Shown: one piece after another, positions 11,993-48,203 of the stretch
Position numbering within the stretch: position 1 is the first letter of the stretch
Layout: each line of letters begins with the position of its first letter
Position numbers and translations under genes: made by a program
The notes under the pieces: model-generated
What the model was told of the DNA's origin: nothing
Database searches by the model: none
Seen by the model: the letters and a program-made list of their open reading frames with translations, nothing else
Sequence record: OR062525
Origin: Escherichia phage vB_EcoM_10C2_SA_NWU
Strand: one strand, 5' to 3'
Length of the DNA stretch: 64,000 nucleotides

Positions 11993-12271
11993 ATGAGCTG
12001 TGAAAAATCTTTTTTCTTTATTATTTACGGTAAAGATAACTGCCCACATTGTGTAAGAGCAAAAGAATTTGCAGTCAGTAAAGGTCTGCCTTTTGTATAT
12101 AAGACACTTGGCGAGGGTTACACAAAAGAAGAGCTTATTGAGAAGTGCAGTCCAATCGTACCCAGAACGTTGCCGCAGATCTTCTTAGAAAGTAATCTTG
12201 AAAGTGCCCATATAGGCGGTGCCGATGATTTCATCTCTTTTGTTAAGAATGGTTTTGGAGAGAAAAAGTGA
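11993..12271 (+). CDS. glutaredoxin/thioredoxin-like protein (NrdC/NrdH-like)
   Basis: CPHC redox motif near N-terminus, about 90 aa, between nrdB and nrdD. Confidence 0.6.
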   Translation: MSCEKSFFFIIYGKDNCPHCVRAKEFAVSKGLPFVYKTLGEGYTKEELIEKCSPIVPRTLPQIFLESNLESAHIGGADDFISFVKNGFGEKK

Positions 12272-13128
12272 AAGTTGTAAAACGGGACGGTAGAGAAGAG
12301 GTCTATAACGGAATTAAGGTGATCAAGGCGGCAGAGTCCGCCTTACTTGAGTCTGGACATACTGAAGAAGAAGCTTACCGGATCGCCTGCGCGGTTAATG
12401 AAGTTGTTGCTAACAATCTACCAACCGACCAGTGCACGATCTCTGTAAAAAATATCCATATCCTTGTTGAAGACGCTCTTATGGATATGGGTTTAAAATG
12501 TGCAGCCAGAGAATACATCCAGTATAGGCAGACAAGAGATAATAACAGAGAGGCAGGTGGAAAACTGCTTGCAGATATTAGTGGCTTCTTGGATCGCACT
12601 TGTGATGAATTTACAAAAGAAAACGCAAATAAGCCTACCAATCATGTACACACTCATCGTGACCTGCTTGCAGGCATCCTTAGCAAACACCTTGCATCAA
12701 CACAGATCCTGCCAGACCGTGTCTCAGAAGAGCACAATAAAGGCTTCATCCATGTGCATGATCTTGACTACTTGATCAGTCCGTTAACAAACTGTTGTTT
12801 GGTAAATTATCCAGATATGTTGGAAAACGGATTCAACATTGGCAACGCCCATGTCAGTAAGCCGAAGTCAATAGGGGTTGCAACAACAATCCTTAGCCAA
12901 ATCTCTAGTGCAGTAGCTAGTGCTCAATATGGAGGTCAGACTATGAGCCATATTGATCATTATCTGGCACAGTATGCTGAGGCTACCTATGAGAAGAATC
13001 TTAAATTTTGCCAGGAGCACTGGTTGCCAGATGCTGAAGGTGTTGCAATGCAGATGACTGATAAAGACGTGTTTGACAGCATGCAGACGTTGCTTTATCA
13101 AATCAACACGTTAACTTCTGTCAACGGT
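12268..13128 (+). CDS. nrdD: anaerobic ribonucleotide reductase NrdD, exon 1
   Basis: ATP-cone-like N-terminus (VKRDGREEVYNGIKVIKAAE); frame ends GGT then TAA at a predicted group I 5' splice site. Confidence 0.7.
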
Positions 13129-13282
13129 TAACAAACTGGCCGTTGTAAAACTCTCCTAACCTCATAAGAGGGGTCGGTAAATCCGGCTAACGGGGAACGC
13201 TAAGGCGAAAGCTATGCCAATCCCGTGACTAGTTCTTACAGGAGTTGGAACGGTTGTAACGACTAACGAAAGGCAGAGATGC

Positions 13283-13311
13283 TTGACAAACATTTCTGAA
13301 CCAAGTAGTGT
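13283..13311 (+). promoter_or_regulatory. sigma70-like promoter for the intron homing endonuclease
   Basis: TTGACA-N17-TAGTGT upstream of GGAGAGG RBS and ATG 13353. Confidence 0.4.
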
Positions 13312-13352
13312 AGGGGTTAGTTGAAATACTAACTTCGAAATGGAGAGGCTCT

Positions 13353-13886
13353 ATGAAAAAGATCATTCTTAATGGTGAAGAATCAAACTATGTGATTGAT
13401 GAGGTTGGAAACGTATACGGAAAACGTGGAATGCTACACCCAATATTGTGGGGAGGTTATGGAAAAGGTAACAAGCATGTTAAACGCCGTTATATGTACT
13501 CTTTCAACCACAAAGGTAAAAAGATTCGAATCCAAACCTCAAGGATTGTTGCCTTGTATTGTTTGCCAGATGTCCCAGAAGACCCTGAAAACTGGGAAGT
13601 GAATCATAAAGATGGCAATACATTGAATGATCATCCGTCTAACCTAGAGTGGGTTTTGCCGGAAGATAATAAGAGACATGCTTTCCGAACAGGACTTTGT
13701 CCAGGCAAGTGCTATAGGAAAGTGCAGGCATACAAAGGGAAAACCTTAGTTGGTGAATATCCTTCACTCTATGCCTGTGCAAAAGCCTTAAATTTGAACG
13801 TAGGTAACGTTCATAGGGCTATCGAAGGAAATGCCGAAGGTAAGCATCTAACAATAAAGGGTTATTATCTTATTGAAGTAGAGTAA
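13353..13886 (+). CDS. HNH homing endonuclease (intron-encoded)
   Basis: EVNHKDGNTLNDHPSNLEWVLPEDNKRH HNH motif; N-terminal NUMOD4-like NYVIDEVGNVY; C-terminal HTH-like. Confidence 0.75.
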   Translation: MKKIILNGEESNYVIDEVGNVYGKRGMLHPILWGGYGKGNKHVKRRYMYSFNHKGKKIRIQTSRIVALYCLPDVPEDPENWEVNHKDGNTLNDHPSNLEWVLPEDNKRHAFRTGLCPGKCYRKVQAYKGKTLVGEYPSLYACAKALNLNVGNVHRAIEGNAEGKHLTIKGYYLIEVE

Positions 13887-13967
13887 GAGATAGTCTGGCC
13901 CTGTGGAAACACAGGGAGGAGACAGCAGACTCCATTCATCACATTAAGTTTAGGACTGGATACCTCG

Positions 13968-15188
13968 GTCTTTGGTAGAATGATTACCAAAAATTACTTG
14001 AAAGTCCACAAAATGGGTCTTGGTGAAGAACGGATCACACCTGTGTTCCCTAAAGTACTGTTCTTCCTAGAAGAGGGTGTCAACATGAACCCCGAGGATC
14101 CTAACTATGATTTGAAACGATTAGCTCTGGAATGCTCTGCAGAGCGGATTTATCCTGACTTTGTTTCTGTTCCACTAAATCGTAAAGTGACAGGCTCGAC
14201 AGATGGTAAAGTAACGAGCATGGGTTGCCGGAGTTTTCTTAGCAAATACAATGACTTGGAAACAGGCGAGGAGAAATACCTTGGCAGATTTAACTTAGGC
14301 GTTGTTAGCCTTAACCTACCAATGATTGCGGCAAAAGCTAAAACGGAAGGTGTTGATTTCTTTGCAGTTCTTGACGAGTACTTGGATCTGGCATACGAGG
14401 CTCACCTTGTAAGGGTTAACCGTCTAAAAGGAACAAAGGCAGGGCAGAACCCCATCATGTGGTGTGAAGGAGCCCTTGCTCGCCTGGATCCTGAAGAGAG
14501 TATTGATAAACTCTTCTATGACGGGTATGCTTCCATAAGTATTGGGTATATTGGTGTGTATGAAACCTGCCAGATTTTAGGCAGAGAGGGAGACAAGTCC
14601 TTAGCTCTTGGGATCCTTCAGCACATGAAAGACGCTTGTGATCGGTACAAAAAAGAAAGTGGTCTGGCATTCAGCTTGTACGGCACTCCTTCAGAGAGCT
14701 TGTGCTATAAGGCTGCAACATGTCTAGATCGTGAATATCCTGAAGTGTTGAAGCACGAGCACGAATACCTTACCAACAGTTTCCACCAGCCCGTGTGGAT
14801 CAATAGCTCACCTTTTGACAAGTGGAAGTATGAGGAAGGTTTTGCTATGATCTCTTCTGGCGGTAACATTGGATACATAGAAACACCTAACCTGAAAAAC
14901 AACCTGGATGCTTTGGAATCCCTTGTCGATTTCGGGTATAAACACATTATGTATTTTGGTATTAACCAACCTGTGGATAAATGTCTTAAGTGCGGATTCT
15001 CTGGTGAGTTCAGTGCAAAAGCTAAAGGCTTTGTATGCCCAGAGTGCGGAAACCATGAAGAGGGAACGATCAGTGTGATTAGACGTGTATCTGGGTATCT
15101 GTCCAGTCCAAACTCCCGACCTTACAACAAAGGTAAGCAAGCGGAAGTTATAGAACGGGTTAAGCACTACGGAAGCTGTGGTTGCTGA
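13968..15188 (+). CDS. nrdD: anaerobic ribonucleotide reductase NrdD, exon 2
   Basis: C-terminal glycyl-radical motif RRVSGYLSS and Cys cluster CLKCG...CPECG; in frame with exon 1 if spliced at 13128/13968. Confidence 0.7.
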   Translation, partial: VFGRMITKNYLKVHKMGLGEERITPVFPKVLFFLEEGVNMNPEDPNYDLKRLALECSAERIYPDFVSVPLNRKVTGSTDGKVTSMGCRSFLSKYNDLETGEEKYLGRFNLGVVSLNLPMIAAKAKTEGVDFFAVLDEYLDLAYEAHLVRVNRLKGTKAGQNPIMWCEGALARLDPEESIDKLFYDGYASISIGYIGVYETCQILGREGDKSLALGILQHMKDACDRYKKESGLAFSLYGTPSESLCYKAATCLDREYPEVLKHEHEYLTNSFHQPVWINSSPFDKWKYEEGFAMISSGGNIGYIETPNLKNNLDALESLVDFGYKHIMYFGINQPVDKCLKCGFSGEFSAKAKGFVCPECGNHEEGTISVIRRVSGYLSSPNSRPYNKGKQAEVIERVKHYGSCGC

Positions 15189-46615: not shown

Positions 46616-46867
46616 TTATAGATTGCTCCAGTACAATCGGCATTTACATTTTGGGCAATGAGGTTCTTTTATGTAATAACCGTCAGTCTTTGGAACACTT
46701 TTTGGTGCAGTTTTAAGATTGTACCGAGTAAAACACCGGAAGCAGGTTACCTCTCCGACCTGTTGATCGTTGATCCACTCGCCAGAGTAAAGCTCTTTCT
46801 TGTTTCTCATAATTCTCTCCCCAATCCTCTGCAATCTTCTACCAGAATCTCCAGCCAGAAAGCACAA
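46616..46867 (-). CDS. small zinc-ribbon protein
   Basis: CFRCF...CPKCKC cysteine pairs. Confidence 0.4.
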   Translation of the reverse strand: MCFLAGDSGRRLQRIGERIMRNKKELYSGEWINDQQVGEVTCFRCFTRYNLKTAPKSVPKTDGYYIKEPHCPKCKCRLYWSNL

Positions 46868-47063
46868 GGGAACACTTTAAGGATTGAATCTTTACTCGGT
46901 TCGGAAGTTATTTTTCCGTAGGGCAGGTAGAAATACCCTCCTGCAGATTCGAACACGGCCCCTTCGGTCGTATCTATCACAGCCAGAATTAAGATTTTAG
47001 TCTCCATAGTGGTGCTCCCTCTCTCAATCGTTGTGGTGACTATACCATCTCAAAAGTCAGCTG

Positions 47064-47621
47064 TCAACACTCTTTGTACTCCACCACGATAATATCTATA
47101 TCAAAAGTGGCGAGGTTAATAACGTCCTCTACGTGCTCCCACTTCAAACCGCCTATGCCGCATCCGATCTTAGGGATGTAGAATGGTAAAGTCGATCCAC
47201 TGAATACCTCATTGACTAGCTCAAAGCCTTTCAGGATTGAGAAATATTCAGCATTAGGTCCTGGGTAGAACTGAGTATACAGATTGATTCCGTAGACAAT
47301 ACCTCTCGGAGATAAGTGCTCCCATCGGGAGAACGCACCCAGTTTACTTAGGCAACCGTGTCTGGTCTCTTTGTCAGCTGCCAATGCTTGAGGGAACTCA
47401 CGGGCAATCTGTTTTGCTATCCCCTTGCCCATTGTGTGGAAGCAGTTACAACCGTGGATCAGGTGACCAGCACCGCTCTTAAAAAGGGAGATTAAATCTC
47501 CCTCTACAGTATCAATAATCACGGTATGCCAGCTCCTCTTCCGCAATTTCAAAAAACTCATCCCAACCTTGTGGCATATTTGAGTTGCCGAAGTGGCTTT
47601 CATAGTAAAGGTTCTCACCAC
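47064..47621 (-). CDS. macro domain protein, TARG1/OARD1 (DarG-type) ADP-ribosyl hydrolase-like
   Basis: GDLISLFKSGAGHLIHGCNCFHTMGKGIAKQIAREFP ... YIPKIGCGIGGLKWEHVEDVI ... IDIIVVEY aligns by eye with TARG1-type macro motifs as I recall them; true start probably internal (about 47561). Confidence 0.55.
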   Translation of the reverse strand: MVRTFTMKATSATQICHKVGMSFLKLRKRSWHTVIIDTVEGDLISLFKSGAGHLIHGCNCFHTMGKGIAKQIAREFPQALAADKETRHGCLSKLGAFSRWEHLSPRGIVYGINLYTQFYPGPNAEYFSILKGFELVNEVFSGSTLPFYIPKIGCGIGGLKWEHVEDVINLATFDIDIIVVEYKEC

Positions 47622-47937
47622 TTGGGAGATAGAAATCTGTTACCTCGTAGAATCCACAATCGTCGCACTCGCCTTCTTCAAACTTGGCCTCAACCTTAAT
47701 ACCGAGGAAGGTGAAAAGTTTATGAATATCTTCAGTTTCGAACTCCCAGTGAATGTTGTTTTCCGCATCGGTGTAGAACTGGATCAGCAGACCATTGTCC
47801 AGTTTACCAAAATACTCTGTGAAGTAACTTCCTTCCCAGAAATCTCTATGACAAATAATATCCATGCGTTTGCCCATAATAATGGTGTGAGCGTTTTGGG
47901 CATCGTCGCGAATCAGTTTTGGCATTTCATAGATCAT
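47512..47937 (-). CDS. hypothetical acidic protein
   Basis: co-directional ORF. Confidence 0.4.
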   Translation of the reverse strand: MIYEMPKLIRDDAQNAHTIIMGKRMDIICHRDFWEGSYFTEYFGKLDNGLLIQFYTDAENNIHWEFETEDIHKLFTFLGIKVEAKFEEGECDDCGFYEVTDFYLPSGENLYYESHFGNSNMPQGWDEFFEIAEEELAYRDY

Positions 47938-48005: not shown

Positions 48006-48203
48006 TTACGCAGGGATTGCTTCAAACAGGCCGTTATCGATACCATCCTTCAAGTAAAGATTATACTCTATGTCAGTATCTGTGTAAAGGGCAGCATCTA
48101 GCATTCTATCTGTTAGTCCATCCATTGGGTGGAGAAACCACCACCCACGCCAGTCAAAGTAACAACCTGGGGCATCTTCTCTCACACGGATTCGATAAAT
48201 CAT
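48006..48203 (-). CDS. hypothetical protein
   Basis: co-directional ORF. Confidence 0.35.
   Translation of the reverse strand: MIYRIRVREDAPGCYFDWRGWWFLHPMDGLTDRMLDAALYTDTDIEYNLYLKDGIDNGLFEAIPA

What the first reader, a model, noticed from the sequence alone, without database searches (positions are those of the whole stretch)
47064..47621. TARG1/DarG-type macro domain protein: candidate counter to ADP-ribosylation defense
The ORF carries what I recognise as the signature blocks of TARG1/OARD1-type macro domains (GDL...HGCNCFHTMGKGIAKQI...F, YIPKIGCGIGGLKWEHVEDVI, IDIIVVEY), the same macro type as the DarG antitoxin that removes DarT-installed ADP-ribose from DNA. A phage copy would be a natural counter to DarTG-type or other ADP-ribosylating defenses. 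The reading frame overlaps its upstream neighbour by over 100 nt, so the real start is probably internal.
Basis: partly seen in the sequence, partly recalled or inferred. Interest (0 to 1): 0.6.

Follow-up and report, generated by a model that had tools for sequence, protein, structure and literature searches.

The report
Phage macrodomain, T4 Tk.4/AdfM family

Summary
The ORF is real. The window is the last 64 kb of Escherichia phage vB_EcoM_12A_SA_NWU, a Vequintavirus.

It belongs to the phage T4 Tk.4 family. It is 39% identical to T4 Tk.4 (E 2e-40) and 68% identical to the gene in the tk.4 position of a Krischvirus. A 2025 preprint named T4 Tk.4 AdfM, because deleting it sensitises T4 to DarTG2.

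The catalytic Lys of TARG1/DarG is absent. An invariant Gln (Q84; 230 of 230 family sequences) takes its place, as in Streptomyces SCO6735. That enzyme hydrolyses thymidine-linked ADP-ribose on DNA and needs this Gln.

Most likely function: an enzymatic eraser of DarT2-type DNA ADP-ribosylation. This rests on homology and has not been tested for this protein. Main rival: clearing ADP-ribose by-products of the phage's own sirtuin/RNA-ligase module.

Verdict: a correct call on a new member of a known kind, of modest interest.

The parts
47064..47522 (-). Macrodomain gene (152 codons plus TGA), a member of the T4 tk.4/adfM family. This is the corrected extent of the reported ORF.
   Evidence: sequence and translation; 459-nt CDS annotated in phages I29 and rV5_ev168; 39% identity to T4 Tk.4, E 2e-40; AF2 pLDDT 97.
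47520..47522 (-). GTG start codon. It overlaps the stop of the upstream gene within GTGATTATTGA, an 11-nt gene overlap that suggests translational coupling.
   Evidence: N-termini of 54 homologues.
47533..47538 (-). Shine-Dalgarno sequence GAGGAG, 10 nt upstream of the GTG.
   Evidence: read directly from the sequence.
47523..47621 (-). 5' extension of the mechanical ORF. It is not part of the gene; this DNA encodes the C-terminus of the upstream gene in another frame.
47445..47456 (-). Codons H23-G24-C25-N26. They match SCO6735 H24/N27, DarG N22 and Poa1p H23. N26 is present in 233 of 233 ungapped family sequences.
   Evidence: roles of the equivalent residues from PMC9411070 and PMC5179494.
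47421..47429 (-). Codons G32-K33-G34, the GxG loop of the ADP-ribose cleft. K33 aligns with SCO6735 K34, but is Ala or Ser in most family members.
47271..47285 (-). Codons N80-L-Y-T-Q84. Q84 occupies the column of the catalytic Lys of TARG1 (K84) and DarG (K80), and of the essential Gln85 of SCO6735.
   Evidence: alignments; Q in 230 of 230 ungapped sequences, never K; Q85A inactivates SCO6735.
47148..47165 (-). Codons G120-C-G-I-G-G125, the phosphate-binding loop. G124 lies at the TARG1 D125 column.
47512..47937 (-). Upstream gene of 141 aa, acidic (pI 4.27), phrog_8157, function unknown. It is probably co-transcribed and translationally coupled with the macro gene. It is not a conserved partner of the family.
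   Evidence: Homologues occur in 176 phage records. The tk.4 neighbourhood of Krischvirus kvi carries no gene of its size; the neighbours there are vs, tk and small ORFs. No Pfam, NCBIfam or PADLOC hit.
48060..48088 (-). Sigma-70-like promoter (TTTACA-17-TATAAT, 11 of 12 matches) upstream of the two-gene unit. A consensus match only.
47039..47067 (-). Sigma-70-like promoter (TTGACA-17-TATAGT with an upstream TG) overlapping the macro stop codon, positioned to serve the next small gene. A consensus match only.

Best explanation
The gene encodes a stand-alone 17-kDa macrodomain ADP-ribosyl glycohydrolase of the phage Tk.4/AdfM (T4-type) family. It is probably transcribed from host-type promoters within a long leftward block of small accessory genes downstream of the replication genes. 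The proposed mechanism is as follows. When a host DarT2 toxin ADP-ribosylates thymidines in single-stranded phage DNA and blocks replication, the enzyme binds the ADP-ribose in its cleft (GxG loop 32-34, G-rich loop 120-125). It then hydrolyses the ribose-thymine bond, releasing ADP-ribose and restoring unmodified DNA. In effect it is an orphan antitoxin: the macro half of DarG, without the DarT-binding domain and without a toxin partner. Chemistry is probably not the lysine-dependent route proposed for TARG1 (covalent lysyl-ADP-ribose intermediate) and inferred for DarG. Instead an invariant Gln84, held by Asn26, would position the distal ribose for water-mediated hydrolysis, as proposed for SCO6735. 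Shown here: the fold, the class, family membership, the active-site residues, and the absence of a DarT hit among the tested neighbouring and large ORFs. Inferred from homologues: catalytic activity, the DNA-thymidine substrate, the anti-DarTG2 role and early expression.
Against: There is no experiment on this protein or on any Vequintavirus orthologue. The Bas54 (Vequintavirinae) transposon library was not challenged with DarTG2. The T4 evidence is genetic, from a preprint, with no biochemistry. At 39% identity, substrate specificity could differ. This class is promiscuous: TARG1 and SCO6735 also act on protein Glu/Asp-ADP-ribose, and Poa1p is an ADP-ribose-1''-phosphate phosphatase. The DNA-contacting lysines of SCO6735 (K34, K89) are not conserved in the family, and the protein is mildly acidic (pI 5.8). 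A published comparative survey argued that phage macrodomains mainly target soluble ADP-ribose derivatives (PMC9503650).
Confidence: 0.65

Rival explanations
1. A housekeeping enzyme for soluble ADP-ribose derivatives, working like Poa1p. It would dephosphorylate ADP-ribose-1''-phosphate, or clear O-acyl-ADP-ribose, produced by the phage's own NAD+-dependent RNA-repair module. It would not act on DNA adducts.
Against: The macro gene lies about 52 kb from that module and is not linked to it. Iyer et al. note that this sirtuin is not coupled to an adjacent Macro gene. The family occurs in 2780 phage records, including T4. The only phenotype known for the family is DarTG2 sensitivity. Poa1p has Ser, not the family's invariant Gln, near the catalytic column. 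The two roles are not mutually exclusive.
Confidence: 0.15
2. An eraser of ADP-ribose on proteins or RNA. It would counter other ADP-ribosylating host defences (for example mRNA- or protein-targeting transferases), or reset modifications made by phage or host transferases.
For: TARG1 and SCO6735 remove Glu/Asp-linked ADP-ribose from proteins. The class is broadly promiscuous, and the phage encodes a sirtuin that could in principle ADP-ribosylate macromolecules.
Against: SCO6735 strongly prefers the DNA substrate over protein in competition assays. No ADP-ribosyltransferase domain was found among the window ORFs tested, and none is annotated in the rest of a related genome. The T4 orthologue came out of a DarTG2 screen.
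Confidence: 0.12
3. A non-catalytic macrodomain. Having lost the catalytic Lys, it would only bind ADP-ribose or sequester a toxin or signal molecule.
For: Lys and Asp are absent at the TARG1 catalytic columns. SCO6735 and DarG can also inhibit DarT by binding it. Some macrodomains are pure readers.
Against: Gln84, Asn26, His23 and the Gly-rich loops are invariant across 235 diverse sequences, which is the pattern expected of an active site. The Gln-type enzyme SCO6735 is more active on T-ADPr DNA than the Lys-type enzymes.
Confidence: 0.05

Closest known systems
Phage T4 Tk.4 = AdfM (anti-DarT factor Macrodomain; HIDEN-SEQ preprint 10.1101/2025.11.20.689424)
   Same: Same family. Full-length alignment at 39% identity, E 2e-40. 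Same size (152 vs 155 aa). Same motifs: HGCNCFHTMG, NLYTQ, IG(C/A)GIG. The family profile scores it at 163.8 bits. A Krischvirus gene in the tk.4 position is 68% identical to the window protein.
   Different: A different phage subfamily (Vequintavirinae vs Tevenvirinae) and a different neighbourhood: here it follows a 141-aa acidic protein, not vs. The anti-DarTG2 phenotype is shown only for T4. Neither protein has published biochemistry that I could find.
Streptomyces coelicolor SCO6735 (PDB 5E3B) and Bacteroides BT1257 (2FG1/2AFC)
   Different: Only about 23-24% identity. SCO6735 and BT1257 have a 'mobile loop' five residues longer after the Gln, which the phage family lacks. The DNA-contacting K89 is absent and K34 is not conserved in the family. 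These are cellular housekeeping proteins, not phage proteins.
DarG antitoxin macrodomain (Mtb 5M3I, T. aquaticus 5M31/5M3E; NCBIfam NF048014)
   Different: DarG uses a catalytic Lys80 where this family has Gln84. DarG also has a C-terminal DarT-binding domain and an adjacent darT gene. Here the match is 47 bits against a 250-bit cut-off, covers only the macro part, and no DarT hit was found among the tested neighbours.
PhiKZ gp104 = AdfM of chimalliviruses (PMC13309987)
   Same: A phage-encoded stand-alone ALC1-like macrodomain, shown biochemically and genetically to reverse DarT2 modification of DNA. It falls in the same broad PHROG, phrog_335.
   Different: Only 21% identical, BLASTP E 2e-5. 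The family profile scores it at 46.8 bits, below the four cellular reference enzymes scored alongside it. It is Lys-type, with N23 and K78, and is imported into the phage nucleus. It was probably recruited independently, so two different subfamilies now share the name AdfM.
Human TARG1/OARD1 (4J5R/4J5S) and yeast Poa1p (6LFQ)
   Different: TARG1's catalytic K84 and D125 are Gln and Gly here. Poa1p has a roughly 25-residue insertion and Ser near the catalytic column. Both are eukaryotic, with different physiological substrates.

Membership tests
Macro domain superfamily (Pfam PF01661) | Profile match above the curated cut-off, plus the macrodomain alpha/beta fold | tested here: met
ALC1-like macrodomain class (TARG1 / DarG / Poa1p / SCO6735) | Closer in sequence and structure to members of this class than to MacroD, PARG, viral nsP3 or macroH2A types | tested here: met
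TARG1/DarG catalytic type | Catalytic Lys (TARG1 K84, DarG K80), plus Asp125 in TARG1 | tested here: not met
   Gln84 aligns with the Lys and Gly124 with Asp125. The column holds Gln in 230 of 230 ungapped family sequences and never Lys.
SCO6735-type (Gln-type) ALC1-like hydrolases | Essential Gln at the Lys column, held in place by a conserved Asn | tested here: met
   Q84 and N26 align with SCO6735 Q85 and N27. Both are invariant in the family.
SCO6735-type (Gln-type) ALC1-like hydrolases | Extended 'mobile loop', five residues longer than in DarG/TARG1, reported as characteristic of the subclass (PMC9411070) | tested here: not met
   The phage family has a five-column gap where SCO6735 has GMKTG. 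It is therefore a separate Gln-type subfamily, not a member of the SCO6735/BT1257 subclass.
DarG antitoxin of DarTG2 (NCBIfam NF048014) | Full-length two-domain protein (macro plus DarT-binding C-terminal domain) scoring above cut-off | tested here: not met
   47.3 bits against a 250-bit cut-off. Only model positions 3-143 of 338 are matched. The protein is 152 aa.
DarG antitoxin of DarTG2 (NCBIfam NF048014) | An adjacent darT toxin gene | tested here: not met
   No PADLOC hit in six neighbouring ORFs. No DarT-type Pfam domain in the large window ORFs tested.
Phage Tk.4 / AdfM (T4-type) family | Full-length homology to T4 Tk.4, with the shared HG(C/A)NC ... NxYTQ ... IG(C/A)G(I/L)(G/A)G signature | tested here: met
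   BLASTP 39% identity, E 2e-40. Profile score 163.8 bits, against 63 bits or less for outgroups. 68% identity to the Krischvirus gene in the tk.4 position. Signature confirmed.
Phage Tk.4 / AdfM (T4-type) family | Protects the phage from DarTG2; removes ADP-ribose from thymidine in DNA | not testable with these tools
   Needs plaque assays and enzymology. It is shown genetically for T4 only. The Vequintavirinae Bas54 library was not tested on DarTG2.

The most novel reading that the evidence does not exclude
The T4-type AdfM family, including this protein, would be a separate Gln-type branch of the ALC1-like macrodomains. It was recruited by phages independently of the Lys-type PhiKZ AdfM and works by a lysine-independent, water-mediated mechanism. 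In rV5-like phages it might serve two roles. One is erasing DarT2 marks on DNA. The other is clearing ADP-ribose-1''-phosphate or O-acyl-ADP-ribose made by the phage's own sirtuin/RNA-ligase repair module. That would link an anti-defence enzyme to phage NAD+-dependent RNA repair.
Probability: 0.15. Interest if true: 0.5.

Novelty: new member of a known kind. Interest (0 to 1): 0.3.

Why it matters
The result assigns a likely function to a gene carried by about 120 sequenced rV5-like coliphages, several of which are candidates for therapy or biocontrol against O157 and O177 strains. It predicts that these phages resist DarTG2-type defence. It also records two points that are easy to miss. First, the two phage proteins now called AdfM (T4 Tk.4 and PhiKZ gp104) belong to different subfamilies with different catalytic residues (Gln vs Lys). 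Second, absence of the TARG1/DarG lysine is not a valid criterion for rejecting DNA de-ADP-ribosylase activity. Beyond that, the finding is a correct annotation of a known family, not a discovery.

Tried and rejected
1. The full 185-codon ORF or the internal ATG at 47561 as the start (one GenBank record annotates a 498-nt CDS). Rejected in favour of the GTG at 47522, on the Shine-Dalgarno, the overlap with the upstream stop and the N-termini of homologues.

2. The upstream acidic 141-aa protein as a split-off analogue of the DarT-binding, DNA-mimicking C-terminal domain of DarG. It has no NCBIfam or PADLOC hit, even at permissive thresholds. It is confined to Vequintavirus and Krischvirus-like phages, and the tk.4 neighbourhood of Krischvirus kvi carries no gene of its size. 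There is no support; its structure was not modelled.

3. A complete DarTG-like toxin-antitoxin pair carried by the phage. No DarT or defence-model hits were found nearby.

4. PHROG membership as proof of orthology with T4 Tk.4. Rejected as too coarse, because the Lys-type PhiKZ gp104 also falls in phrog_335. A family profile built here and gene order were used instead.

7. A literature search for data on Vequintavirinae sensitivity to DarTG2 found none.

Full report
**Where the window comes from.** A megablast of 46000-49500 matches Escherichia phage vB_EcoM_12A_SA_NWU (OR062528.1) at 100% identity. This is a Vequintavirus (rV5-like) isolated from cattle faeces on E. coli O177. About 119 related phage records also match at 80-100% identity. 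The coordinates show that the window is the last 64 kb of that 136,483-bp record.

**The observation.**
- The ORF at 47064..47621 on the minus strand exists, and its translation contains all the quoted motifs.
- It overlaps the upstream gene (47512..47937) by 110 nt.
- Reading the minus strand shows GAGGAG at 47533-47538. A GTG follows at 47522-47520, embedded in GTGATTATTGA, whose last three bases are the upstream gene's stop codon.
- Related phages annotate a 459-nt CDS with this start.
- All 54 aligned homologues begin at the equivalent Met-Ile-(Ile/Val).
- The gene is therefore 47064..47522, encoding 152 aa (16.9 kDa, pI 5.8).

**What the protein is.**
- Pfam Macro is above its gathering score.
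- PHROGs places it in phrog_335, labelled 'phosphatase', at E 1.5e-59.
- The NCBIfam and PADLOC DarG models match its macro part only.
- Single-sequence search of the PDB finds the M. tuberculosis DarG macrodomain first (E 2.9e-7). Poa1p, SCO6735, BT1257 and TARG1 follow.
- With a 54-sequence family profile, all of these score E 1e-14 to 3e-16. Coronavirus Mac1 scores only 3e-3.
- An AlphaFold2 model built on 53 homologues is very confident: pLDDT 97.0, pTM 0.91.

**Which family within the class.**
- tblastn finds homologues in 2780 of 50,697 phage records. In T-even-like phages the hit sits next to the valyl-tRNA synthetase modifier gene vs. That is the position of T4 gene tk.4.
- Direct BLASTP against T4 Tk.4 gives 39% identity over the whole length, E 2e-40.
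- In Krischvirus phage kvi, the gene between vs and tk is 68% identical to the window protein.
- A profile built only from the window protein and metagenomic relatives scores T4 Tk.4 at 163.8 bits. It scores Mtb DarG at 63.4, TARG1 at 60.9, SCO6735 at 59.0, Poa1p at 51.6 and PhiKZ gp104 at 46.8.
- In BFVD, the tk.4 product of Acinetobacter phage 133 superposes at TM 0.89.
- The family is large: 1321 representatives at 50% identity with E of 1e-30 or better.

**What is known about the family.**
- The HIDEN-SEQ preprint (10.1101/2025.11.20.689424) reports that tk.4 was the single significant hit when a T4 transposon library was grown on a DarTG2 host.
- A clean tk.4 knockout made T4 sensitive to DarTG2, and the gene was named adfM.
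- Independently, a chimallivirus macrodomain (PhiKZ gp104, also named AdfM) was shown to remove DarT2-made ADP-ribose from an oligonucleotide. It also rescues cells from DarT2 and protects the phage (PMC13309987).
- The same preprint built a library in the Vequintavirinae phage Bas54 but did not challenge it with DarTG2. I found no data on Vequintavirinae and DarTG2.
- The function of the window protein therefore rests on homology.

- In the profile-to-PDB alignments and in a ten-sequence reference alignment, TARG1 K84 and DarG K80 align with Gln84 of the window protein (motif NLYTQ). TARG1 D125 aligns with Gly124. I confirmed the Poa1p reference sequence against 6LFQ.
- Across 235 aligned family domains, the column is Gln in 230 of 230 ungapped sequences and never Lys. 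N26 is found in 233 of 233 and H23 in 229 of 233. T4 Tk.4 also has Gln.
Published work shows the criterion is unsound.
- SCO6735 lacks the Lys and Asp and has Gln85 at that column.
- Q85A abolishes its activity, and N27S (the equivalent of N26 here) nearly does.
- SCO6735 removes thymidine-linked ADP-ribose from DNA faster than DarG or TARG1, does not act on guanosine-linked ADP-ribose, and rescues cells from DarT (PMC9411070).
- The Tk.4 family thus has a SCO6735-like catalytic position.
- It is still not a member of the SCO6735/BT1257 subclass. It lacks their five-residue-longer mobile loop and the K89 contact.
- PhiKZ gp104 is Lys-type (N23/K78) and only 21% identical to the window protein, although it falls in the same broad PHROG.
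- The two proteins called AdfM are therefore different subfamilies.

**Context.**
- The gene lies in a long leftward block of small genes of unknown function, downstream of rIIB, helicase, primase/helicase and DNA polymerase.
- Sigma-70-like promoter matches lie upstream of the two-gene unit and at its end. This suggests early expression by host RNA polymerase, but it is inference only.
- The upstream 141-aa acidic protein overlaps the macro gene by 11 nt. It has no Pfam, NCBIfam or PADLOC match. It occurs only in Vequintavirus and Krischvirus-like phages, and the kvi tk.4 neighbourhood carries no gene of its size.
- No DarT or other defence model matches the neighbours. The macrodomain is an orphan, not half of a toxin-antitoxin pair.

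**The main rival.**
- The same phage genome, 4-7 kb before the window begins, encodes an RNA ligase, a cREC protein, a SIR2 protein, a P-loop kinase and a calcineurin-like phosphoesterase.
- Iyer et al. describe this as the 'phage V5-type' sirtuin-centred RNA-repair neighbourhood. They predict it removes RNA 2'-phosphates with NAD+, producing ADPr>P or ADPr-1''P. They note that no Macro gene is adjacent (PMC9503650).
- A Poa1p-like macrodomain elsewhere in the genome could clear such products. Poa1p is structurally as close as DarG, and its H23 and S30 align with H23 and T30 here.
- Against this, the macro gene is about 52 kb from the module. The family is widespread, including in T4. The only phenotype known for it is DarTG2 sensitivity.
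- The two roles are compatible, because this class is promiscuous.

**Verdict.** The protein is a new, untested member of a family whose T4 representative was recently named AdfM. Homologues are already annotated in GenBank as 'macro domain protein' or 'phosphatase'. My confidence that it is an active ALC1-like ADP-ribosyl hydrolase is about 0.85. My confidence that its main biological role is countering DarT2-type DNA ADP-ribosylation is about 0.65.

Noticed in passing
window 12268-15188 (+): The anaerobic ribonucleotide reductase gene nrdD is split into two ORFs. The first (12268-13131) carries the ATP-cone and the NRDD N-terminus; the second (13980-15188) carries the NRDD C-terminus and the glycyl-radical domain. 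An HNH endonuclease ORF (13353-13886) lies between them. In phage JES2013 the gene is a single 2124-nt CDS. This looks like a homing-endonuclease or intron insertion.
   Followed up: partly
outside the window: OR062528.1 64778-68630 (locus L009 1779-5631): The same phage carries a cluster of RNA ligase (RNA_lig_T4_1), cREC_REC, SIR2, an unassigned 237-aa protein, a P-loop kinase and a calcineurin-like phosphoesterase. This is the 'phage V5-type' sirtuin RNA-repair neighbourhood of Iyer et al. 2022. It is a possible source of soluble ADP-ribose derivatives for the macrodomain.
   Followed up: partly
window 47512-47937 (-): A 141-aa, strongly acidic protein (pI 4.27, phrog_8157) is translationally coupled to the macro gene. 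It has no family or defence-model hits. Homologues occur only in Vequintavirus and Krischvirus-like phages, and the tk.4 neighbourhood of Krischvirus kvi carries no gene of its size. Function unknown.
   Followed up: partly
window 47064-47522 compared with Krischvirus kvi (L005 3001-3453): The Vequintavirus macrodomain is 68% identical to the Krischvirus (RB49-like) tk.4 product but only 39% identical to that of T4. This suggests fairly recent gene exchange between rV5-like and RB49-like phages. The upstream 141-aa gene shows the same two-group distribution.
   Followed up: no
BFVD hit A0A481YV05: The best viral structural match is the macro part of a 302-aa 'SNF2 subfamily protein' of Marseillevirus LCMAC103 (TM 0.93, 40% identity). 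A giant eukaryotic virus thus carries a close relative of this phage family.
   Followed up: no
window 46616-46867 (-): A small downstream gene encodes a Phage_zn_bind_2 zinc-binding domain protein (Pfam PF23903, E 1.6e-22; phrog_4864). Relatives annotate a shorter 195-nt CDS.
   Followed up: no
megablast hit list: Sixteen records named 'Campylobacter phage' (for example A147, D1) are 94-96% identical to this E. coli Vequintavirus over the queried region and carry no annotation. They are probably mislabelled or contaminant assemblies.
   Followed up: no
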